DNA from: an uncultured Gammaproteobacteria bacterium
GTDB taxonomy: Bacteria > Patescibacteriota > Microgenomatia > Daviesbacterales > UBA10151
Direction of reading: 5' to 3'
NCBI GenBank assembly: GCA_964551605.1
Contig: CAZKCV010000001.1
Coordinates: 61,992 to 125,991 of the forward strand
Length of the DNA stretch: 64,000 bases
Shown: piece by piece, positions 18,883 through 28,427 of the stretch
Position numbering within the stretch: position 1 is the stretch's first letter
How the letters are laid out: every line of letters begins with the position of its first letter
The notes under the pieces: model-generated
The model's database searches: none
Told to the model about the DNA's origin: nothing
What the model saw: the letters and a program-made list of their open reading frames with translations, nothing else
Translations under genes and position numbers: made by a program

Positions 18883-19818
18883 ATGAATCAAGATTACCTA
18901 AAAGAACAAATTGATCAGATAAACAGACGCATCCAGGACATCAAGTCTTTGCTGGAAGATCCGGAAATGGCTGAACTGGCAGCAGAGGAAATTACCGAGC
19001 TGGAAAGACAAAAAGAGGAATTGCAGTCATCAGTCGTCAGTCATCAGTCGTCAGATGATTCAAACAGTCTGACAGCTGACAGCGAAGCGATACTGAAATC
19101 TGACAGCTGTATATTAGAAATCCGCTCAGCAGCCGGCGGAGATGAAGCCGGGCTTTTTGCCGGAGATTTGCTGCGGATGTATACCAAGTTTGCTCTAAAT
19201 AAAAAGTGGAAGATTGAGGAACTGGACAGATCAGAGGGAAAATTAGGGCAAATTAAGGAAATTGTACTCAAAATAGTCGGAAAAGGCTGTTTTGACTTAT
19301 TAAAATATGAATCCGGTGTACACCGGGTACAAAGGGTACCCACCACTGAATCTTCCGGCCGGATTCACACTTCAACTTCCACCGTAGCAGTACTCCCCCA
19401 TGTCACGGAAGCACAGGTTGCTATTAATCCGGGAGATATAGAATTTGAGGCTTTCAGAAGCGGAGGCGCAGGAGGACAAAATGTTAATAAAGTCTCCACA
19501 GCCGTCAGACTAAAACACATCCCCACAGGAATCACAGTCACTGCCCAAACCGAGCGTTCACAGTTACAAAACAGGGGAAATGCCCTTTCGCTCCTTAGAG
19601 CCAAGCTCTGGGAAATGGAGCAGCAAAAAACTGTCGGAGATATTGAAACACAAAGATCTACTCAAGTGGGAACCGGTGAAAGATCGGAAAAAATCAGGAC
19701 ATATAATTTTCCCCAAAACCGGGTGACTGACCACCGGATCAACAAATCCTGGCATAATTTAGACAGGATCTTAGAAGGAGACCTGGATGATATCATCCAA
19801 ACCCTCTCAGTACATTAA
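18883..19818 (+). CDS. prfA: peptide chain release factor 1
   Basis: GGQ motif ([18 protein letters not shown]). Codon-recognition tripeptide region [17 protein letters not shown] is PxT-type. Contains the 7-bp tandem (cagtcrt)x4 at 19024-19054. Confidence 0.85.
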
Positions 19819-20500
19819 GGGCTGGGTAGAATTTTACAAGTTAAAGTTTAAAGTTACCCCTGATGTTTTAATCCCCCGCCCGGAAACAGAATTATTAGTA
19901 GATGAGGTTTTACGGTACTGTAACCTGTACCCTGAAACCTGTAACCTGATTCTGGACCTTGGTACCGGCTCCGGAAATATTGCCATTTCCATTGCCAAAA
20001 ACTTACGTTTACACCCTTGGGGTGTAAACGTAACAATTGTTGCTACCGATATTTCCCAAAAAGCCCTTAAAGTAGCCAAACAAAATGCGAAGGTGTATGG
20101 AGTCTCCGACCGGATTATCTTTCTCCAGTCTGATCTGCTTAATTATTCAAAAAGTCGACGATCGTCAGATTTTTGTCAACTTGTTCCTGATATTATTGTT
20201 ACGAATCTGCCTTATATCCCGTCCGCCCGGATTCCCTACCTGGACTCTTCAGTCAAGGATTTTGAACCGCATGTCGCGTTGGATGGTGGTGAAAACGGCT
20301 TTAAGCTTTATAGAAAGCTTTTTCAACAGCTTAAATATAGGAACTGGACACCCAAATTACTCATTGGCGAAATCGACTACACTCATGGGGAACTGGCAGC
20401 AAATGAGGCACAAAAGTATTTTCCTGAAGCCTTAATTGAAGTTAAAAAAGACCTGGCTCACTTACAAAGGATCTTAACAATCGAGCATTTCACTGATTAG
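19787..20500 (+). CDS. prmC: release-factor glutamine N5-methyltransferase PrmC/HemK (short N-terminus)
   Basis: NPPY-type motif [12 protein letters not shown]-binding [12 protein letters not shown]. Overlaps the prfA 3' end by 32 bp. Confidence 0.75.
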
Positions 20501-21614
20501 GTAACTCCTGCAGTGCAGCGGTTAGTTCCCTTTCCCGACCATCATTCCAAACAGTCAAACTTAACCTGTCACCAATTTTCTTGCTGGCTATCGTATCCGA
20601 GATTTTTTTCTCTGAATCCACCGCCTGGCCATCGATTTTGGTAATAATGTCGCCTTCCCGTAAACCAGCCTCATCTGCCGATGAATCTGCCACCACTTCC
20701 TGAATAAATGCTCCCTGGGGCACTTCATTTAAGATTGCTACGTCTTTGGAGATAAACCTGTATCTTATCCCTAAGAAGGGCCGGGACACCGAACCTGTTT
20801 GAATGAATTCTTCCGTGATTTTCTTGACAGCATTAATCGGAATGGCAAAGCCGATATTTTGGGCCCCTTCAGTAGTAGCCACACTTACTCCGATAACCTG
20901 CCCGGCGGAATTCAAAAGCGGCCCGCCTGAATTGCCCGGATTAATGGCTGCATCTGTTTGAACCAAATCATCCAGACTTTCTGCTGTCCCTGAAAACGGG
21001 TCGCCTGCCACTACCCTCCTGCCCATCCCTGATACCACGCCGGTGGTCACTGTATTGGTAAACCGGCCCAAGGCATTACCGATGGCAATGACTGTCTGAC
21101 CAACCTTAAGCTTTGAAGAATCTCCCAGCTCTACTGCCTTTAAGCCACTGGCATCTATTTGAACAATGGCTAAATCCAAAATCGGATCCCGGTAAACCTT
21201 CCTGATCTCATACTTCGTACCCTCTTTTGTAACCACGTTATATTTAATATTCTGATCATCTATTACATGTTTATTGGTCACAATGATTCCCTTATCGGAA
21301 ACCACAAAACCCGTGCCGATGGTGCTGCTTTGGCTGCGGGGGACAGAAAAGGGGTCAAAGGGATTAAAAGTCCTGGTGGTAGCGCCAATAGCCACTACTG
21401 AAGGTGAAACTTTGTCAGCTGCGGAGATAACCGCATTTTCTTCGGAAACAACCCTCCTGGTTTCCTGGGTTTGCAGGTTGGGTAGCTTCACACCCGTAAA
21501 AGGCAGCCACCCCCTGACTTGTGCCTGATAGACTAAAGCGGCTGCCAATACACCTAAGCCGATGGCTATGGCAATCCCGCTTAAATTTGGCCTTGGTAGT
21601 TTTGAATAATCCAT
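20490..21614 (-). CDS. HtrA/DegP-family serine protease (trypsin-like + PDZ)
   Basis: GNSGGPLLNSAGQVIGV catalytic-Ser block, His/Asp blocks, C-terminal PDZ. N-terminal TM anchor. Confidence 0.85.
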   Translation of the reverse strand: MDYSKLPRPNLSGIAIAIGLGVLAAALVYQAQVRGWLPFTGVKLPNLQTQETRRVVSEENAVISAADKVSPSVVAIGATTRTFNPFDPFSVPRSQSSTIGTGFVVSDKGIIVTNKHVIDDQNIKYNVVTKEGTKYEIRKVYRDPILDLAIVQIDASGLKAVELGDSSKLKVGQTVIAIGNALGRFTNTVTTGVVSGMGRRVVAGDPFSGTAESLDDLVQTDAAINPGNSGGPLLNSAGQVIGVSVATTEGAQNIGFAIPINAVKKITEEFIQTGSVSRPFLGIRYRFISKDVAILNEVPQGAFIQEVVADSSADEAGLREGDIITKIDGQAVDSEKKISDTIASKKIGDRLSLTVWNDGRERELTAALQELPNQ

Positions 21615-21616
21615 TA

Positions 21617-22861
21617 TTACAACAGTTCCAGCGCTTTTTCCAGCTGCAAATCCTTGGCCGGCTCTGCTGTCTCTTCTGCCGGTACTAAACTTTGTTTCTC
21701 ATTTTCTATTTTAACATCAGGTTCAAGGCCCTGGGTATCATTCACCCACCTGCCATCAGGGGTTAACCATTTGGCTACCGTAATATGAATCCCTGTCCCC
21801 TCAGCCAATTCCTGGGCCTCCTGGATAGTGCCTTTGCCAAAAGATTTTTCTCCCACTAACTGAGCCCTTTTCCGATCCTGCAAGGCACCGGCAACGATCT
21901 CCGAAGCAGAAGCAGAACCTTTGTTAATCAGCGCGATTAGCGGAAGCTTTGTCAATCTGCCTGTTCTGTTAACCTTAAATGACGTCCTGACTTTATCTTT
22001 GTTCTCCTGCAAAACCACATCCCCTCCTTCTAAAAACTCCGAGCCGATAAAGACTGCGCCTTCCAAAAACCCGCCGGGATTATTCCTGAGGTCAAGGATA
22101 ATTGCCTCTGCATTAGCTGTTAGCAACCCTGAAACCCCTTCATTCCATTCCTCTTCCGTCCTCTCTCCAAACCGGGACAGCTTAACAATTGCCACCTTCT
22201 TACCTGAGCTTGTTTCCTTAAATGAAACCTCAACGCTTTTGACGATGATGGTATCCCTGGTCAAATTAAATTCCCTGGTATCAGAATCCCCCTCCCTAAA
22301 AATGGTCAGCTTAACTTCGCTGCCTTTAGGACCACGGATCAGGTTTACTGCTTCCGGAAGCGTCATATTGGCAGTATCTTTGTCATCAATTTTGACAATT
22401 TGGTCCTGGGGCAAGAGGCCGGCCTTTTGGGCGGGAGTACCGGAAAGCGGTGCCATTACCACTAATCTTTTGTCCTTATCAAACCCCAGCTGAATCCCCA
22501 CCCCTTCGAAACTTCCGTTTAATTCATCCTTGGAGAACTTTTGTTGCTCCGGCGGTAAAAAGACGGTATAGGGATCACCCAAAGCAGCCACCATCCCGGA
22601 AATCGCTCCGTAAAATAATTTTTTGGCATCGATGGCCTGCTTATCATAGTAGGAACGTGATAATAAATCCCAGGTGTCCCAGAAAAGTTGAAAATCCAAA
22701 TCAATTTTCTCAGGAGGAACTTTATTTTTTATGGTAACAGTCGGCCGGTAAGCTGCCCATTTAATCTCTACATCCCGATGGCCTGCCTGCCAACCTAATA
22801 AAAAGGCCAGTACCACTATTAAAACCAACTTGGTATTGATATTACGGAAGAAAGATTTCAC
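21617..22861 (-). CDS. C-terminal processing peptidase (S41, Ctp/Prc-like) with PDZ
   Basis: KGSASASEIVAGALQDRKRAQLVGEKSFGKGTIQ is the S41 catalytic Ser/Lys region. N-terminal TM anchor. Confidence 0.85.
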   Translation of the reverse strand: MKSFFRNINTKLVLIVVLAFLLGWQAGHRDVEIKWAAYRPTVTIKNKVPPEKIDLDFQLFWDTWDLLSRSYYDKQAIDAKKLFYGAISGMVAALGDPYTVFLPPEQQKFSKDELNGSFEGVGIQLGFDKDKRLVVMAPLSGTPAQKAGLLPQDQIVKIDDKDTANMTLPEAVNLIRGPKGSEVKLTIFREGDSDTREFNLTRDTIIVKSVEVSFKETSSGKKVAIVKLSRFGERTEEEWNEGVSGLLTANAEAIILDLRNNPGGFLEGAVFIGSEFLEGGDVVLQENKDKVRTSFKVNRTGRLTKLPLIALINKGSASASEIVAGALQDRKRAQLVGEKSFGKGTIQEAQELAEGTGIHITVAKWLTPDGRWVNDTQGLEPDVKIENEKQSLVPAEETAEPAKDLQLEKALELL

Positions 22862-22872
22862 AAATACAAACT

Positions 22873-23997
22873 CTACCCTATTACCTCAAGATTCGCAACT
22901 GGTACCTGCAGTTTTCGCCTCTTGGTTTCCACTGTGGCCAGGGAAATTCGCAGTCCGGAAGGCAAAAGGGTCGGCGACTGGTCAATGGCAACAAGTTTCC
23001 CCTGCTCTCCGGGATAAGAATTGCCAATAATCCTAACCTTTAAGCCAATCCTTAATTCCGTTTTATCCGCAGGCAGAGATTCTTCTGAATTGGATAATTT
23101 AGTCCCCTTTACTTTTTCCAAGCTGGAAGAATAGGGTGAAGGAAGGCTGATCATACCCTTATTCCCGTCAATGAAAACAAATTTCCCCTCATATTCGGAT
23201 AAAACTTCAAATATATCCTCACCCAAAGGGATTGAACCAAATCCTTCGCAAACCACCACTGAAATACCGATGTCGTTATCTAATTTTTTGGGAAACATTA
23301 AGTGGCCGCCTGCCATTGACCGGTAATCTTTTGCCTCTATGCCTCCGGTAATAATGCCGCTAACCCCGTTGGAGATAGCGGCAGCAATAGTCTCCTTAAA
23401 AAATAAACTGCCGCCCACCAGTATATAGCCGTCATAATCTTTTTGTACCTCACTTTTAGCAATCAAATTATCCTGCTTGCTTAAGATATGCAGGGTACCG
23501 TCGCGGAAGTGTCCGGACCCGAACATGCCATATATGCGGCTGACCAGGGTCTTAATCTTTACCTGCCCTTTTTCTTTATCCACCTCTTCCACTAAGCCGT
23601 GGACGCCGGCCGGCAGTTTTGATTTTTTCGGCAGAAAAGCAATCCGGACTTCGCCGGTTTCCTGATTAAAAAAGTCCAACACTCCGTCAGTAGGAGAGGT
23701 AATTACCTTTTTACCAAACAGCCAATCCTTTTTATAGGCCAACAGTTCGCCCTTAAATATCCTTTTGTTTAATTTACCAACCAGGTATTTTTCCACCTGA
23801 TGCGGCGTGACTGCCAATAAGTGAGCCAAATTGATGATCCGAAACCCGGAAGAAATACTGGCTTCACCAATAATTTCATCAGGTGAAACCTGTTGCCCCT
23901 CCTTAACAAAGAGCACGCCTTTTCCTTTTAATACCCTGGTAACTAAAGTGACCGCGTCTTTCTCCACCCTTTTCCTGAGACTAACCAAATTATTCAC
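22873..23997 (-). CDS. hypothetical protein (barrel-sandwich-hybrid-like N-region, KOW/SH3-like C-terminus)
   Basis: VKEGQQVSPDEIIGE lipoyl/hybrid-like motif; LKVRIIGNSYPGEQGKLVAI KOW-like. No family call possible. 11-bp gap to ctp. Confidence 0.35.
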   Translation of the reverse strand: MNNLVSLRKRVEKDAVTLVTRVLKGKGVLFVKEGQQVSPDEIIGEASISSGFRIINLAHLLAVTPHQVEKYLVGKLNKRIFKGELLAYKKDWLFGKKVITSPTDGVLDFFNQETGEVRIAFLPKKSKLPAGVHGLVEEVDKEKGQVKIKTLVSRIYGMFGSGHFRDGTLHILSKQDNLIAKSEVQKDYDGYILVGGSLFFKETIAAAISNGVSGIITGGIEAKDYRSMAGGHLMFPKKLDNDIGISVVVCEGFGSIPLGEDIFEVLSEYEGKFVFIDGNKGMISLPSPYSSSLEKVKGTKLSNSEESLPADKTELRIGLKVRIIGNSYPGEQGKLVAIDQSPTLLPSGLRISLATVETKRRKLQVPVANLEVIG

Positions 23998-24659
23998 AAA
24001 GACCTCCCGTCAATGATCAGGCCCAGTTTTCCGCCGTATACTTCAACCGCACTTTCTTGTTTGCCCAAAAACTTGCCGTTTCGCAAAGAATATTCTATCT
24101 CACACCGCTCTTTCGGACAGCGGATTACCCGGAAACTACCCTGTTTAACCTCGTATTTTTCACTCTTAAACTTTAGCCTGATCTTACCGCTGCTGTCTTC
24201 AAACTGCGGCAGTAAAACAGAGCCGACTATTTCATCAACATCATTGGTTAGCACAATTGTCCAGACATCCTCAAAAAAATCCTGCCTGGCCCGGCCCAAC
24301 AGCAAGCCGTCAATAAAGCTCAGGGTCAAACTTTCCAAATCAGGCACAAATTCCAAAAATCGCTTCGGTATTAAGATTTTCCGCAGGGTGATGTTTAAGA
24401 AAGGGTTGCTACCAAGCAAAGTATTGTTGTTCTTGCCTGTATCTTCTGGCCCGTTAAGTTTAAGAGCCTCACGGAGTATAGCCAGGTCAATCTGCATATC
24501 ATATTCTGTAAGAGGCAAGGCAGCCGGGTATAAGATTTTATTTGCCAAATAATTTTCCAACCTGTTGGCAGCCGGGATTGGCTTAAGCCAGAGGGCTATA
24601 GCTTCAGGGGAGATTTGATCTAAATTATCAAAGCTGTCAAAAAGTCCGGCAGTGGGCAT
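23994..24659 (-). CDS. hypothetical protein
   Basis: ORF with 4-bp overlap (ATGA) to the downstream gene. No motif recognised. Confidence 0.35.
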   Translation of the reverse strand: MPTAGLFDSFDNLDQISPEAIALWLKPIPAANRLENYLANKILYPAALPLTEYDMQIDLAILREALKLNGPEDTGKNNNTLLGSNPFLNITLRKILIPKRFLEFVPDLESLTLSFIDGLLLGRARQDFFEDVWTIVLTNDVDEIVGSVLLPQFEDSSGKIRLKFKSEKYEVKQGSFRVIRCPKERCEIEYSLRNGKFLGKQESAVEVYGGKLGLIIDGRSL

Positions 24660-24662
24660 GAA

Positions 24663-24717
24663 TCTAGTGTACCACTAGATAGTTATGAGTTGGTAGTTAT
24701 TAGTTCGTAGTAATTTC
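24663..24717. repeat. perfect CTAG hairpin (tctagtg-tac-cactaga) plus AGTTNNT heptad array directly upstream of the 24659 start
   Basis: agttatg agttggt agttatt agttcgt agtaatt at 24681-24717. Confidence 0.6.
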
Positions 24718-24718
24718 T

Positions 24719-25048
24719 CTACAACTTAGGAACAAAGGGAAGCAGGGCTAAATGACGGGCGTATTTTATGTTCCTGGCCACTGCCCGCTGGTGTTTGCTG
24801 CAGAGACTGCTCTTGGCGCGGGCCACGATCTTAACCCGGTCTGTAGTGAAACGGCGAAGAACCGCCATATCAGTATAGGAAGGCTCTGTTTTACCTTTGC
24901 AAAATAAACAAACCCTTTTTGTTCTGCCTGTATCCTTAGAGTCTGTTTCCTCAACTTCTGATACTTTTGATACCTCTTCTTCCTTTGATACTTTTTCCTT
25001 CACAGCAATCTTGGATATAACTTTTCTGGTAATTTTCTTTTCTGCCAT
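24719..25048 (-). CDS. rpsR: 30S ribosomal protein S18 (N-terminally extended)
   Basis: RVCLFCKGKTEPSYTDMAVLRRFTTDRVKIVARAKSSLCSKHQRAVARNIKYARHLALLPF. Confidence 0.85.
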   Translation of the reverse strand: MAEKKITRKVISKIAVKEKVSKEEEVSKVSEVEETDSKDTGRTKRVCLFCKGKTEPSYTDMAVLRRFTTDRVKIVARAKSSLCSKHQRAVARNIKYARHLALLPFVPKL

Positions 25049-25072
25049 TGGGGAATTATATATTAAATCTTA

Positions 25073-25564
25073 CTAGAATGGAAGATCGTCTTCTACTTCT
25101 TCTTTAGGGGCTGTTTTTTCTTTCTTTTCTTTCTCCGGCTCTTCCTCTACTGCTGAAACATCTTCTTTTGGCTCATCTTTTTTAACCGGCTCTACATCCA
25201 AATCACCAGGAGCCGCATAATCACTATTTCCCTTCGGAGTAAGCAAAATCATGTCTTCTATGACTATTTCCGTTACCTGCCTGGTCTGGCCATCCTGTCC
25301 TTCCCAGGACCTGGTCTGCAATCTTCCGGATACAAAAACGCGGTTTCCTTTTTTAAGAAGTTGGTTACAAAGTTCAGCCAGTTTATTCCAGGCCACTAAA
25401 CGGTGAAAATCTGCTTCTTCTTTTCTCTCGCCCTCTGTGACGTAAGTCCGGTTGGTAGCCATGCCAAAAGTACAAACAGCAGCGCCATTAGGGGTATATC
25501 GAAGTTCTGGGTCCCGGGTCAGATTACCTATTAGTTCAACTCTATTCCAAGATCTCGATGCCAT
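25073..25564 (-). CDS. ssb: single-stranded DNA-binding protein
   Basis: OB-fold N-domain RVELIGNLTRDPELRYTPNGAAVCTFGMATNRTY. Acidic C-terminal tail ending DDLPF. Confidence 0.9.
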   Translation of the reverse strand: MASRSWNRVELIGNLTRDPELRYTPNGAAVCTFGMATNRTYVTEGERKEEADFHRLVAWNKLAELCNQLLKKGNRVFVSGRLQTRSWEGQDGQTRQVTEIVIEDMILLTPKGNSDYAAPGDLDVEPVKKDEPKEDVSAVEEEPEKEKKEKTAPKEEVEDDLPF

Positions 25565-25570
25565 TTTTGT

Positions 25571-25598
25571 TTAGAAATTAGAAATTAAAAATTAAAAA
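25571..25598. repeat. 7-bp tandem array (ttagaaa)2(ttaaaaa)2 in the ssb-rpsF spacer
   Basis: The same array type is found at 56010-56037. Confidence 0.6.
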
Positions 25599-25604
25599 TT
25601 TCCG

Positions 25605-25886
25605 TTATCTTCTGATTAAGAGATAACGGAGAATATCTTCTTCTACTTTCAAAGTTTTGTCAAGGCCTTTTACATCCTTAGGGTCAGCGGAAATTTCAAT
25701 ATGGGCATAGTAGCCGGAAGTGTTCCTTTTGATGGTATAAGCTAAAGAACGGACCCCCCAAAGGTCTTCTTTCACAATCTTCCCTTCACTGCCGACTATT
25801 TTCTTGGTCATAGAATCAAGAAGAGTTTTCCTTTCTTTCTCTTCCAGCTCTGGTTTTAAGACTAAAGTTAAATAATATGAATTCAT
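25605..25886 (-). CDS. rpsF: 30S ribosomal protein S6
   Basis: MNSYYLTLVLKPELEEKERKTLLDSMTKKIVGSEGKIVKEDLWGVRSLAY. Start moved to the internal ATG at 25886. Confidence 0.8.
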   Translation of the reverse strand: MNSYYLTLVLKPELEEKERKTLLDSMTKKIVGSEGKIVKEDLWGVRSLAYTIKRNTSGYYAHIEISADPKDVKGLDKTLKVEEDILRYLLIRR

Positions 25887-25953
25887 GCTGGAAGGTATTG
25901 TACTAGGAAGCGGAAGATAATTCAATAGCTTAAGAATGTCAACTCCTGATTAA

Positions 25954-27087
25954 TTACCATCTGCTGCGCTGAGAAGCAAATCTTTCCATAAGGTCACGGT
26001 AATAACGTCGCTCTCCCAGACGTACATATGATGGGTCAAGGTTGGCAATGTTTGCGATTACCCAATCCATCGGATTTATCTTAACTTTCTGCCCACATGC
26101 AGCTTCCTGAGCCTCTCTTGTTCTTACTTTCCAAACTTCCCAAACCTCAGAAGATGGGTAACATTCCCCGACTACCATACTAACTAAATGCCTAAATCCT
26201 GGTATTAATTCTTTCCTTAGAAGAGGAGGATCCTGACCGGGTGGATTGAATTCTTTTGTTCCATACATTCTGTATGGAACAACTATGTCATCCCCGTTGC
26301 GTGAAAAAAACCAGGAAAACTCTTTTTTGGGTTCACTCAAAAAACCATCAGAATCGTAAGTCCGGCCACCCTCCACGTAAACCACCAAATGTCTCCTACC
26401 TTCAGACGTAATTTCTAACACCTTCCTCTTAGACTCTTCCCGCATCTCATTAAATACCTTCTTGATGTGTTCTAATGTTTCTTTTTTCTCTTCATCAAGA
26501 TTGTATTTGTGATCCTTATCTTCCAACAATTCCTCTAAATGATTCATATCGCGAGGGGTAACATTATAGAGCAGGTCTTCTGCGCGCATGTACCTCTCAA
26601 TAGGGGGCCTCCTCAACATATTAACGCCTGCTACCCATACTAATTCATCTTCTATTCCCAAACCTCTTCCGTCTTGCTGCAGAAGATATACTGCTCCTGG
26701 GTGATCAGCATCTGCCAAATGGGCCGGGGTAAACTTTAGTCTTTTATTTCCCTCACGGGCGGTCATTATGGCACTTTGTAAATTACCCAGGCCCTCAATT
26801 CCTCCATCCGACAAAACGTTGCTAATATAAAATCGAAACCACCTCCGTATTTTATCAATATGAGGCTGTTCAACTAAACCATCATCAATCTGCCCGCGCA
26901 TAATGCCGGCCTTAATTTTAAGACTAGCAATGGTTGCTATTGGGTCAACAATCTCATCAGATTCTTTATCTAGCTGTTTGATTGGAACGGCCACATCTCT
27001 TCCAATGAAAGGTATAATTATTCCCTGACCTGCAAGTCTTTCTCCAATCTCTCTAATAGGTGCTAGTGGATCTCTTTCAATTGCCAT
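25954..27087 (-). CDS. conserved-looking hypothetical protein (377 aa)
   Basis: No confident family. A short stretch AVYLLQQDGRGLGIEDEL resembles the GTP cyclohydrolase II YLRQ-EGRGIGL block, but the flanks do not match. Confidence 0.35.
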   Translation of the reverse strand: MAIERDPLAPIREIGERLAGQGIIIPFIGRDVAVPIKQLDKESDEIVDPIATIASLKIKAGIMRGQIDDGLVEQPHIDKIRRWFRFYISNVLSDGGIEGLGNLQSAIMTAREGNKRLKFTPAHLADADHPGAVYLLQQDGRGLGIEDELVWVAGVNMLRRPPIERYMRAEDLLYNVTPRDMNHLEELLEDKDHKYNLDEEKKETLEHIKKVFNEMREESKRKVLEITSEGRRHLVVYVEGGRTYDSDGFLSEPKKEFSWFFSRNGDDIVVPYRMYGTKEFNPPGQDPPLLRKELIPGFRHLVSMVVGECYPSSEVWEVWKVRTREAQEAACGQKVKINPMDWVIANIANLDPSYVRLGERRYYRDLMERFASQRSRW

Positions 27088-27296: not shown

Positions 27297-28400
27297 TTAA
27301 GAACCCACCAAAAACTCAACTACATCTCCGTCCTTAACCTCATAATCCTTCCCCTCAGTCCTGATCCAACCTTTTTGCTTGGCTGCTCCGTATGACCCGG
27401 CTTCAAGTAATTTCTTATATTCAATTACTTCTGCCCTGATGAACTTTTTCTCAAAATCCGTATGGATTACCCCGGCAGCCTGAGGGGCCTTAGTACCCTT
27501 TTTGATAGTCCAGGCCCTGACTTCTTTCTTACCGGCAGTTAAAAATGAAATAAGTCCCAAAAGAGCATAGGCTTTGACAATTAATCTTTCTAACCCTGTC
27601 TGCTCTATTCCCAGCTCTTTCAAATATTCCAGTCGTTCAGCCTCTGATAAATCAACCAACTCTTCTTCCAGTTTTGCACAGATAGCCATCTCATTTTCGG
27701 TTACATTAAGTCGCGATAGCGACTGGTTGTAACCATTTTCAGAAACGTTATATATATACAAAACCGGCTTGATAGTAAGCAATGGTAGCGTCTCAAACCA
27801 TTTTTTAAGGTCTCGGTCTTCCAATTCAAGTTTACTGGTTATCTTCCCTTGCTCAAGATTTCGTTTAATCTCTTCCAAAACCAGTACCATTTTTTCGCTA
27901 TTGCGTAAATTTGGTACCGCCTTTGTTTCCTTCTTCAAATTATCAATCAGTTTGTCTATTACTTGTAAATCCGCCAACCCCAGCTCTGTTTCAGTGGTTA
28001 GCTTATCCGCATCCGGGTTTTCAGAACCTTCCCTGATAATATTGGCATCCTCAAAATCCCTTAAAACATGCACAATCGCATCGACTTCCCGGATATGGGA
28101 TAAAAACTGGTTGCCCAACCCGGCTCCTGTTGAAGCACCCTTAACCAACCCGGCAATATCCACAAATTCTACCACTGCCGGCACAAGCGGCGGCAGATTT
28201 GTCATTTTCTCCTCTTCGCTGACCAGCTGACTTAGCTGATTCAACCGATCATCCGGCACAGCCACCACCCCCACATTCGGTTCAACAGTGGCAAAAGGAT
28301 AATTAGCACTCAAAGCCACTCTCTTTTTCAAAAGGGCATTAAAAAGTGTACTCTTACCCACATTGGGAAGTCCTACTATTCCACATTTTATAGATGACAT
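27297..28400 (-). CDS. ychF: ribosome-binding ATPase YchF (Obg-like)
   Basis: GIVGLPNVGKSTLFNAL P-loop. TGS domain at the C-terminus. Start moved to the ATG at 28400 (the ORF track starts at an upstream TTG). Confidence 0.9.
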   Translation of the reverse strand: MSSIKCGIVGLPNVGKSTLFNALLKKRVALSANYPFATVEPNVGVVAVPDDRLNQLSQLVSEEEKMTNLPPLVPAVVEFVDIAGLVKGASTGAGLGNQFLSHIREVDAIVHVLRDFEDANIIREGSENPDADKLTTETELGLADLQVIDKLIDNLKKETKAVPNLRNSEKMVLVLEEIKRNLEQGKITSKLELEDRDLKKWFETLPLLTIKPVLYIYNVSENGYNQSLSRLNVTENEMAICAKLEEELVDLSEAERLEYLKELGIEQTGLERLIVKAYALLGLISFLTAGKKEVRAWTIKKGTKAPQAAGVIHTDFEKKFIRAEVIEYKKLLEAGSYGAAKQKGWIRTEGKDYEVKDGDVVEFLVGS

Positions 28401-28427
28401 GGAAAGATTATAGATCAATATCTGCTC

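What the first reader, a model, noticed from the sequence alone, without database searches (positions are those of the whole stretch)
20490..24659. Two unknown proteins co-operonic with a Ctp (S41) and an HtrA protease
Four minus-strand genes lie in order: a 221-aa unknown, a 4-bp overlap, a 374-aa unknown, an 11-bp gap, the S41 C-terminal processing protease, a 2-bp gap, then the HtrA-family protease. The 374-aa protein has a barrel-sandwich-hybrid-like N-region and a KOW/SH3-like C-terminus. The 221-aa protein's start is preceded by a perfect CTAG hairpin plus an AGTTNNT array. Ctp proteases often need dedicated adaptors or substrates (for example LbcA, SpoIVFA/BofA), so these unknowns are candidates for a novel protease-adaptor or substrate pair in envelope quality control.
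Basis: inference. Interest (0 to 1): 0.5.

Follow-up and report, generated by a model that had tools for sequence, protein, structure and literature searches.

The report
ATPase-less relic pair beside CPR proteases
The two "unknown" genes are predicted cytoplasmic proteins: a fragment of a GlmL-type ATPase that has lost its ATPase half, and its partner from a large uncharacterised protein family; in CPR bacteria they always sit next to the Ctp protease, but nothing suggests they are its adaptors or substrates.

Summary
In detail: four tightly packed minus-strand genes (221 aa, 374 aa, S41 Ctp, HtrA) lie in a Candidatus Daviesbacteria (CPR) window. The adaptor/substrate reading is poorly supported.

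- **Topology.** Neither unknown has a signal peptide or TM segment. Both proteases are N-terminally membrane-anchored, with almost no cytoplasmic tail.
- **U374.** It belongs to a very large uncharacterised family (1887 clusters at 50% identity). Its fold is barrel-sandwich domains, a swivelling domain like the PEP-utilizer mobile domain (no phospho-His), and a KOW/SH3 end.
- **Context outside CPR.** Homologues occur in at least 549 species of many phyla. There U374 homologues follow, or are fused to, a ~600-aa GlmL/"MutL" (PF13941) ASKHA ATPase, often with a four-gene membrane cassette. No S41 or HtrA gene lies within 10 kb in 0 of 80 loci.
- **U221.** It is homologous only to the C-terminal half of that ATPase. 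The nucleotide-binding half is gone in every CPR partner examined.
- **Context within CPR.** The order rpsF-ssb-rpsR-(partner)-U374-Ctp is kept down to 27% identity, so the Ctp linkage is real but CPR-specific.
- **Upstream DNA.** The hairpin and AACT array are not conserved. A -10-like box 6 nt before the ATG is, implying a leaderless mRNA.

Biochemical function remains unknown.

The parts
24666..24674 (-). TGG + TACACT: extended -10-like promoter box ending 6 nt before the U221 ATG. It is the predicted promoter of a leaderless U221-U374-Ctp-HtrA transcript.
   Evidence: A TAnnnT hexamer ends exactly 6 nt before the partner-gene ATG in 15 of 22 distinct upstream regions, and 5-8 nt before it in 20 of 22. 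Other offsets score 0-3. No SD-like core occurs in any of the 22. Function is inferred; no TSS data.
24662..24680 (-).
   Evidence: Present in the window. The 3' arm is the -10 box plus AGAT and is conserved. The 5' arm is not conserved (L094 CTTGTGG, L109 TAAGTGG, L110 AAGCGTT).
24681..24705 (-). Four AACT copies at a 7-nt period (AGTT on the + strand), in the rpsR-U221 spacer.
   Evidence: Present in L117/L001 and partly in L100 and L115. Absent in the closest relative L094 and in most other loci, where the rpsR stop lies 20-30 nt from the ATG.
23994..24659 (-). U221: an ATPase-less homologue of the C-terminal half of GlmL/'MutL'-type (PF13941) ASKHA proteins. Predicted cytoplasmic partner of U374.
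   Evidence: hhalign of A2 against 21 MutL-like C-termini: probability 95.2%, E 2.6e-8, 205 columns. It is the only one of 359 window ORFs hit by MutL-like HMMs. It matches only profile positions of about 325 and above out of 603. No TM or signal peptide. No PDB fold match.
22873..23997 (-). U374: a member of a large uncharacterised 'KOW domain-containing protein' family. GTG start with a GGGAGG SD inside the U221 3' end.
23482..23997 (-). U374 residues about 1-172: beta-rich N-terminal region with barrel-sandwich-hybrid domains and the Gly-rich loop G157-x2-G160-x-G162-x4-G167.
23098..23460 (-). U374 residues about 180-300: swivelling beta/beta/alpha domain with GG (218-219) and the (T/C)EGFG motif (250-254). 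No His at the phospho-carrier position.
22876..23070 (-). U374 residues about 310-374: KOW/SH3-like C-terminal domain ending in the family-wide motif VP.AN.E.I.
21617..22861 (-). Ctp: S41 C-terminal processing protease (CtpB_N, PDZ, S41) with one N-terminal TM anchor.
20490..21614 (-). HtrA/DegP-family serine protease with one PDZ domain and one N-terminal TM anchor. Its 3' end overlaps convergent prmC by 11 nt.
24719..25925 (-). rpsF-ssb-rpsR, the conserved upstream neighbours. The pair plus Ctp sits where rplI follows rpsR in the canonical operon.

Best explanation
U221 and U374 are two cytoplasmic proteins that most likely form a stoichiometric complex. The complex is a reduced, ATPase-less derivative of a widespread but undescribed module.

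The ancestral module. A ~600-aa GlmL/'MutL'-type ASKHA ATPase is encoded immediately before, or fused to, a protein built of barrel-sandwich domains, a swivelling domain and a KOW/SH3 domain. It is commonly followed by a cassette of four membrane proteins (DUF6754 plus three unnamed families). The soluble pair probably serves that cassette from the cytoplasmic face.

The CPR form. The ATPase half of the first protein has been lost. Partners range from 392 or 371 aa with unrecognisable N-termini, to 187-255 aa, to none at all. The C-terminal module and the U374 protein are kept under strong purifying selection. U221 is therefore best read as the U374-docking domain left over from the ATPase. 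U374 looks like a non-enzymatic scaffold or adaptor: its family-wide invariant residues are mostly Gly and Pro plus R21, R322 and E371, and the phospho-His of PEP-utilizer swivel domains is absent.

Expression. In Microgenomates the pair starts its own leaderless transcript from a -10 box 6 nt upstream of the ATG. U374 is translationally coupled to U221 (GGGAGG SD, GTGA overlap). Ctp, and usually HtrA, are co-transcribed.

What is shown: gene layout, homologies, fold classes, phyletic and synteny patterns, and conservation of the -10 box.
What is inferred: complex formation (fusion plus overlap), cytoplasmic location, leaderless transcription, loss of ATP dependence, and a scaffold role. The link to Ctp is most simply co-expression of envelope-related functions, not direct protease binding.
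For: Family size and distribution.

Rosetta-stone fusion (995 aa, PF13941 at 12-485, U374-like at 629-993).

Adjacency to the MutL-like gene: 41 of 66 loci with at least 2 kb upstream. Membrane cassette: 19 of 43 loci with at least 6 kb on both sides, in 1-3 tandem copies. S41/HtrA within 10 kb: 0 of 80..

U221 equals the C-terminal half of the ATPase:
- hhalign 95.8% and 95.2%.
- Only window ORF hit by MutL-like HMMs.
- All CPR partners map to profile positions of about 325 and above; L008 (91 bits) and L009 (90 bits) act as bridges.
- The L009 partner hits PF13941 positions 308-433.

No TM or signal peptide in the pair, but an anchor in each protease.

Fold classes.

Strong conservation (57-88% identity across about 500 homologues each).

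CPR synteny.

-10 box and absence of SD.

SD and overlap before U374.
Against: - No experiment or co-fold supports the U221-U374 complex. AF-multimer could not be run.
- Some non-CPR genomes (Poribacteria L018, WOR-3 L019) carry a stand-alone U374 homologue, so the family can work without an adjacent ATPase gene.
- An ATPase half encoded elsewhere in the Daviesbacteria genome cannot be excluded from a 64-kb window.
- Conserved U374-Ctp adjacency across deep CPR divergences is more than expected for unrelated genes. It leaves room for a functional tie that the topology argument does not capture.
- Subcellular location rests on hydropathy alone.
- The U374 model has low-confidence stretches (residues 175-185, 225-243, 304-309).
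Confidence: 0.6

Rival explanations
1. One reading: U221 and/or U374 are dedicated adaptors, regulators or substrates of the co-transcribed Ctp (and HtrA) in envelope quality control.
For: U374 homologue and Ctp are adjacent in 32 of 32 Daviesbacteria-level loci and 7 of 7 distant CPR loci. Spacing is tight, there is no internal terminator, and there is a single conserved promoter box.
Against: Both proteins lack export signals, while the protease domains are extracytoplasmic with cytoplasmic tails of about 10 residues. Homologues in 80 non-CPR loci never neighbour S41 or HtrA. U221 derives from an ATPase, not from TPR or membrane adaptor families. L012 keeps U374 and Ctp without any U221 equivalent. 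HtrA linkage is variable.
Confidence: 0.12
2. The pair is still part of an ATP-driven machine. The ASKHA ATPase half, and possibly the membrane partners, are encoded elsewhere in the genome as a split gene.
For: The ancestral system is ATPase-coupled. Stand-alone U374 homologues exist in genomes where partners may be unlinked.
Against: No ORF in the 64-kb window other than U221 matches the full-length MutL-like profile or the cassette profiles. Longer CPR partners (371 and 392 aa) have N-termini that no longer match the ATPase region. L012 has no partner at all.
Confidence: 0.1
3. U374 (KOW domain) is a ribosome- or translation-associated factor. It occupies the rplI slot of the rpsF-ssb-rpsR operon in CPR lineages that have lost bL9.
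For: Its position is directly after rpsR. KOW/SH3 fold. bL9 is reported absent in most Microgenomates and WWE3 (PMC9297842), the lineages where the CPR-type locus was found. No L9-like ORF in the window.
Against: It has its own promoter box. L008 has the pair and rplI together. Non-CPR homologues have no ribosomal context and pair with an ATPase and membrane proteins. The window is only 64 kb, so absence of L9 here proves nothing.
Confidence: 0.07
4. U221 is a decaying gene fragment with no function of its own.
For: Partner length is progressively reduced across CPR, and the partner is entirely lost in L012.
Against: About 500 homologues at 60-88% identity with 41 invariant columns. The start context is conserved. 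The overlap with U374 is conserved.
Confidence: 0.03

Closest known systems
GlmL/MutL accessory proteins of B12-dependent mutases (PF13941, TIGR01319, NF040745)
   Same: The non-CPR partner of the U374 family matches PF13941 end to end (E 1e-121 to 1e-128). U221 is homologous to the C-terminal part of these partners.
   Different: The partners score below all NCBIfam GlmL cut-offs (219 against 475; 152 against 204). They carry a ~130-aa C-terminal extension and have no mutase genes nearby. U221 lacks the whole ATPase half and gets no Pfam hit.
Diol dehydratase reactivase DdrA (ASKHA ATPase plus swivelling domain)
   Different: No B12 enzyme context. U374 has extra barrel-sandwich and KOW domains. 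The CPR form has no ATPase.
PEP-utilizing enzyme mobile (phospho-histidine) domain of Enzyme I, PPDK and rifampin phosphotransferase
   Different: The phospho-carrier His of the GG-x-T-S-H motif is absent: U374 has GGIEAKDY and the family has GGI-x-x-x-D. There are no PEP- or nucleotide-binding partner domains.
NqrA / RnfC N-terminal region (peripheral cytoplasmic subunit of a membrane complex)
   Different: No SLBB or Fe-S domains. The membrane partners show no Rnf/Nqr similarity. In CPR there is no membrane cassette.
Ctp/Prc adaptor systems (LbcA-CtpA, NlpI-Prc, SpoIVFA/BofA with SpoIVFB/CtpB)
   Same: Gene linkage with an S41 protease.
   Different: The known adaptors are exported TPR lipoproteins or membrane proteins. 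U221 and U374 have no signal peptide, lipobox, TM segment or TPR repeats.

Membership tests
GlmL/MutL family (PF13941 / TIGR01319) | Full ASKHA fold with the N-terminal phosphate-binding motifs (DxGSTxTK, DxGGxTTD) | tested here: not met
   U221 aligns only to profile positions of about 325 and above out of 603. The motifs lie upstream of that point.
GlmL/MutL family (PF13941 / TIGR01319) | Score at or above the Pfam or NCBIfam gathering threshold | tested here: not met
   No Pfam or NCBIfam hit for U221 at E<=1.
GlmL/MutL family (PF13941 / TIGR01319) | Detectable homology to the family's C-terminal region | tested here: met
   hhalign probabilities 95.8% and 95.2%. The L009 partner hits PF13941 positions 308-433 at E 2.4e-4.
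GlmL/MutL family (PF13941 / TIGR01319) | Genomic association with B12-dependent mutase genes | tested here: not met
   None in the window or in any fetched locus.
Ctp adaptors of LbcA/NlpI type | Sec/lipoprotein signal and extracytoplasmic location | tested here: not met
   Maximum 19-residue hydropathy is 1.26 (U221) and 1.31 (U374), with no N-terminal hydrophobic segment. This is hydropathy only; no dedicated predictor was available.
Ctp adaptors of LbcA/NlpI type | TPR repeats | tested here: not met
   No TPR family at E<=1. The AF2 secondary structure is not all-helical repeat.
SpoIVFA/BofA-type membrane regulators | Transmembrane segments | tested here: not met
PEP-utilizer mobile domain (PF00391) | Swivelling beta/beta/alpha fold | tested here: met
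PEP-utilizer mobile domain (PF00391) | Phospho-carrier His in the GG-x-T-S-H motif | tested here: not met
   The sequence after G218-G219 is IEAKDY, and no His is conserved in the family.
Biotinyl/lipoyl carrier domains | Barrel-sandwich hybrid fold | tested here: met
Biotinyl/lipoyl carrier domains | Modified Lys in the hairpin (M-K-M or D-K-A) | tested here: not met
   No such conserved Lys among the invariant columns of A1, A3 or A4. This is by inspection.
NusG/Spt5 | KOW domain | tested here: met
NusG/Spt5 | NGN domain | tested here: not met
   No NGN hit. NF033644 scores 12.6 bits against a cut-off of 100.
RnfC/NqrA | N-terminal barrel-sandwich domain | tested here: met
   RnfC_N scores 37 and 34 bits against a 25.6 cut-off in P0360 and P0346.
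RnfC/NqrA | SLBB plus 4Fe-4S domains, or Rnf/Nqr membrane subunits nearby | tested here: not met
   TIGR01945 scores 15 bits against a cut-off of 246. The neighbours have no Rnf/Nqr hits.
Known anti-phage defence systems (PADLOC) | Match to any PADLOC model | tested here: not met

The most novel reading that the evidence does not exclude
The GlmL-like ATPase, the barrel-sandwich/swivel/KOW protein, a small ~110-aa protein and the DUF6754-memA-memB-memC cassette (1-3 tandem copies) together form an undescribed membrane-associated machine. It is present in hundreds of species of mostly uncultivated phyla and is powered by an ASKHA ATPase rather than a P-loop ATPase. CPR bacteria keep only its ATPase-less soluble core and have wired it into one leaderless operon with the membrane-anchored Ctp and HtrA. 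On this reading the core acts from the cytoplasmic face in the same envelope-protein maturation or quality-control pathway that the proteases serve outside.
Probability: 0.25. Interest if true: 0.75.

Novelty: categorically new. Interest (0 to 1): 0.55.

Why it matters
The finding turns two CPR hypothetical proteins into a defined evolutionary object. One is the docking remnant of a lost ATPase. The other is its partner from a family with thousands of members and no described function.

It also exposes a conserved multi-gene system: an ASKHA ATPase, the KOW/barrel-sandwich protein and four membrane proteins. The system spans many candidate phyla and some Bacillota and Synergistota. Full-text searches for DUF6754 and PF13941 returned nothing.

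Because Bacillota and Synergistia MAGs carry it, a cultivable carrier may exist in which the system could be studied, but none was identified here. The CPR form shows which parts survive extreme genome reduction.

The strict CPR-wide coupling to Ctp is a concrete hypothesis for what the core does. The fixed -10-to-ATG distance adds a clear candidate case of leaderless expression in Microgenomates.

"Categorically new" here means only that no described system matched and every membership test failed. The function is still unknown.

Tried and rejected
- Pfam, NCBIfam and PADLOC scans of U221 and U374: nothing.
- PDB sequence searches with both profiles: only noise, and a weak uL24 KOW hit at E 0.52.
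- The afdb50 library was unavailable.
The CPR survey therefore rests on Daviesbacteria-level loci plus single look-ups.
- U377 (25954-27087) as the missing ATPase half: rejected, no match to MutL-like profiles.
- The hairpin as a terminator: rejected, no T-tract and not called.
- The hairpin as a conserved RNA structure: rejected, the 5' arm varies.
- The AACT array as a conserved operator: rejected, absent in the closest relative.
- The sigma-70 consensus scan did not call the -10 box, because no -35 match exists.
- PDB searches with profiles of the four membrane-cassette proteins: only an FN3-like ectodomain in DUF6754 proteins.
- Literature searches for DUF6754, PF13941, GlmL, and CPR plus Ctp: nothing relevant.
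Full report
**1. What is in the window**

The best hits of both unknowns are Candidatus Daviesbacteria or Patescibacteria hypothetical proteins, so the window comes from a CPR (Microgenomates) genome. On the minus strand the order is rpsF (25925-25605), ssb (25564-25073), rpsR (25048-24719), U221 (24659-23994), U374 (23997-22873), Ctp (22861-21617) and HtrA (21614-20490).

Ctp is a complete S41 protease (CtpB_N, PDZ, S41; TIGR00225 339 bits). HtrA is a one-PDZ Do-family protease. Both keep their catalytic signatures. No terminator-like site separates the four genes, and convergent prmC closes the unit.

**2. Location of the four proteins**

A 19-residue hydropathy scan gives maxima of 1.26 for U221 and 1.31 for U374, with no N-terminal hydrophobic segment. 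Ctp (1.83, residues 4-22) and HtrA (2.25, residues 11-29) each have one N-terminal anchor, preceded by about 10 residues that carry the positive charges.

The protease domains are therefore predicted outside the membrane and the two unknowns inside. Almost no cytoplasmic protease surface is left to contact. This is an inference from sequence; no dedicated signal-peptide tool was available.

**3. U374**

It has about 500 close homologues (57-85% identity), all unnamed. A profile search of 1.8 billion cluster representatives found 1887 clusters at E<=1e-3 and 955 at E<=1e-10.

Longer homologues pass the Pfam thresholds for RnfC_N, Biotin_lipoyl and KOW. The phospho-carrier His of the GG-x-T-S-H motif is absent (GGIEAKDY). 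Across the whole family the invariant columns are glycines plus E371, and the near-invariant columns add R21, R322 and P366. That pattern fits a scaffold or adaptor better than an enzyme.

**4. The family outside CPR**

One representative (P0348, 995 aa) is a fusion. PF13941 'MutL' covers residues 12-485 (E 2.8e-128) and the U374-like part covers 629-993. PF13941 is the GlmL-type ASKHA (hydantoinase-like) family, not mismatch-repair MutL.

In separate-gene loci a ~600-aa PF13941 protein ends at or overlaps the start of the U374 homologue (L005, L006, L010).

A scan of one genome per GTDB species found at least 549 species with a relative. The 80 best come from Poribacteria, WOR-3, Hydrothermota, Stahl-, Eisen-, Zixi-, Fermenti- and Coatesbacteria, Cloacimonadota, Muiribacteriota, Eremio- and Dormibacterota, Sumerlaeota, Ignavibacteria, Synergistia, Bacillota and two archaeal bins.

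Profiles built from fetched loci gave these counts:

| Feature | Count |
|---|---|
| MutL-like gene directly upstream | 41 of 66 loci with at least 2 kb upstream |
| ~110-aa protein upstream of the MutL-like gene | 24 of 43 loci with at least 6 kb on both sides |
| Membrane cassette DUF6754-memA-memB-memC | 19 of 43 loci with at least 6 kb on both sides |
| S41 or HtrA gene within 10 kb | 0 of 80 loci |

The cassette occurs in two or three tandem copies in L062, L080, L087 and L093.

The cassette proteins are membrane proteins. The ATPase partners score below all NCBIfam GlmL cut-offs. No PADLOC model matches. Some genomes carry a stand-alone U374 homologue with unrelated neighbours (L018, L019).

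**5. U221**

- The U221 profile aligns to residues 316-560 of the L005 ATPase (hhalign 95.8%, E 7.6e-9).
- It aligns to a profile of 21 MutL-like C-termini over 205 columns (95.2%, E 2.6e-8).
- MutL-like HMMs hit only the U221 ORF among the 359 window ORFs (E 1.7e-9 and 3.7e-6).
- Shared motifs are W-x-P...L-x-N-x-x-x-N-K-x-x-x-P...P-x-T...A-I-x-R-E-A-L and the terminal G-G-x-x-G-L-I-x-D-G-R.

With a 39-sequence full-length profile (603 positions), every CPR partner matches only positions of about 325 and above:

| Partner | Bits |
|---|---|
| L008 | 91 |
| L009 | 90 |
| L013 | 51 |
| L007 | 45 |
| L011 | 29.5 |
| U221 | 20 |

The L009 partner also hits PF13941 positions 308-433 directly. The nucleotide-binding motifs lie upstream of that point.

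Partner length forms a series: about 600 aa outside CPR; 392 and 371 aa in L013 and Katanobacteria L011, with N-termini that no longer match the ATPase; 255, 221, 212 and 187 aa in Microgenomate-type loci; and none in L012, where rpsR is followed directly by the U374 homologue.

The retained part abuts the U374-like part in the fusion protein. With the 4-bp overlap and the GGGAGG SD inside the U221 3' end, this argues that U221 is the U374-docking module of a lost ATPase and that the two proteins form a complex. That step is inferred.

**6. Synteny in CPR**

All 32 Daviesbacteria-level metagenome loci with sequence downstream of the U374 homologue have S41 next. Where the contig reaches upstream, rpsF-ssb-rpsR-partner precedes it. 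HtrA follows Ctp in 15 of 18 loci with room, and is missing in L105, L110 and L128.

Seven distant CPR-type loci (U374 identity 27-34%) all keep Ctp immediately downstream:
- L007, L011 (Katanobacteria), L012 and L013: Ctp followed by HtrA.
- L008: Ctp-rplI-HtrA.
- L129: Ctp then prmC.
- L009: cut off by the contig end.

Flanking genes differ between these lineages, so the rpsR-to-Ctp block is kept as a unit. The Ctp linkage is therefore real but confined to CPR.

**7. The upstream DNA**

The palindrome (24680-24662) and four AACT repeats (24705-24681) exist. Aligning 22 distinct upstream regions at the ATG gives a different picture:
- The repeats are missing in the closest relative (L094) and in most other loci.
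- The 5' arm of the palindrome varies.
- A TA[CAT]A[CA]T hexamer, often preceded by TG, ends exactly 6 nt before the ATG in 15 of 22 regions, and 5-8 nt before it in 20 of 22. Any other offset scores 0-3.
- No region has an SD-like core.

A -10 box at that distance puts the transcription start on the A of the ATG. The first gene of the unit is therefore most likely translated from a leaderless mRNA. U374 has a strong SD. This is inferred from conservation only.

**8. Interpretation and comparison**

The pair is best explained as the ATPase-less soluble core of an undescribed system built from an ASKHA ATPase, a KOW/barrel-sandwich protein and a membrane cassette. It is not a member of the GlmL family, because the ATPase half and the thresholds are not met. 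It is not a PEP-utilizer carrier (no His), a biotinyl carrier (no modified Lys), NusG (no NGN), RnfC/NqrA (no SLBB or Fe-S) or a known Ctp adaptor (no export signal, TPR or TM).

Architecturally it recalls two known things. One is DdrA-type reactivases (ASKHA plus swivel domain). The other is NqrA/RnfC-type peripheral subunits docked on small membrane proteins. These are resemblances, not memberships.

The adaptor/substrate idea remains possible only if topology predictions are wrong or if the tie is indirect (confidence about 0.12). Lesser rivals are a split ATPase encoded elsewhere, and a ribosome-related role in the rplI slot of bL9-less lineages (PMC9297842).

**9. Verdict**

The identity of the parts, their evolutionary origin and their distribution are well supported. 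Full-text searches for DUF6754 and PF13941 returned nothing, and no other search found a description of the system. Interest is moderate, at 0.55.

Noticed in passing
window 24660-24674 (-); L094-L124 upstream of the partner gene: A conserved -10-like box sits at a fixed 6-nt distance from the ATG, with no Shine-Dalgarno. This suggests the first gene of the unit is leaderless across Daviesbacteria and in L007.
   Followed up: yes
L003, L006, L010, L015, L017, L035, L044, L060, L062, L080, L087, L093 (around 7-19 kb): A conserved non-CPR gene set: ~110-aa protein, GlmL-like ATPase, U374 homologue, DUF6754, and three further membrane-protein families. The four-gene membrane cassette occurs in 1-3 tandem copies. 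No literature was found.
   Followed up: partly
L038 4207-11119; L053 3322-11119; L065 4194-11119; L090 555-7145: Bacillota-type loci carry two tandem paralogous ATPase + U374-homologue pairs. In the loci where ORF lengths can be read, one of the two U374 homologues is longer (about 470-485 codons stop-to-stop), consistent with the long 450-475-aa form that carries an extra N-terminal barrel-sandwich domain.
   Followed up: no
L014 6016-10005: A 1330-aa GlmL-like protein has a ~720-aa N-terminal extension of unknown nature ahead of the PF13941 domain.
   Followed up: no
window 24659-21617 versus L008 3793-7139: The pair plus Ctp occupies the position after rpsR where rplI sits in the canonical rpsF operon. 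L008 has rplI right after Ctp. bL9 is reported missing in most Microgenomates and WWE3 (PMC9297842). No L9-like ORF is in this window.
   Followed up: partly
window 25954-27087 (-): A 377-aa ORF between ychF and rpsF has no Pfam, NCBIfam or PADLOC hit and no similarity to the MutL-like profiles. A 309-aa unannotated ORF (no Pfam hit; homology to U377 not tested) occupies the same position in L001.
   Followed up: partly
window 27297-28418 (-): ychF lies just upstream of the rpsF block here and in L001, L007, L008 and L012. YchF has been linked to leaderless-mRNA translation (cited in PMC12641178). This may be coincidence.
   Followed up: no
window 20490-20500: The HtrA 3' end overlaps the 3' end of convergent prmC (19787-20500, +) by 11 nt. 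No terminator-like site was called between them.
   Followed up: no
L018 10001-11134; L019 10001-11125: In Poribacteria and some WOR-3 genomes the U374 homologue is a stand-alone gene among unrelated neighbours (ABC-2 permeases, transketolase, FtsEX). The family is therefore not always linked to the ATPase.
   Followed up: partly
P0455: A protein labelled 'candidate division CPR3' belongs to the non-CPR subfamily (GYDLGVAITG motif). This is either a mis-binned contig or a CPR lineage that keeps the ancestral type.
   Followed up: no
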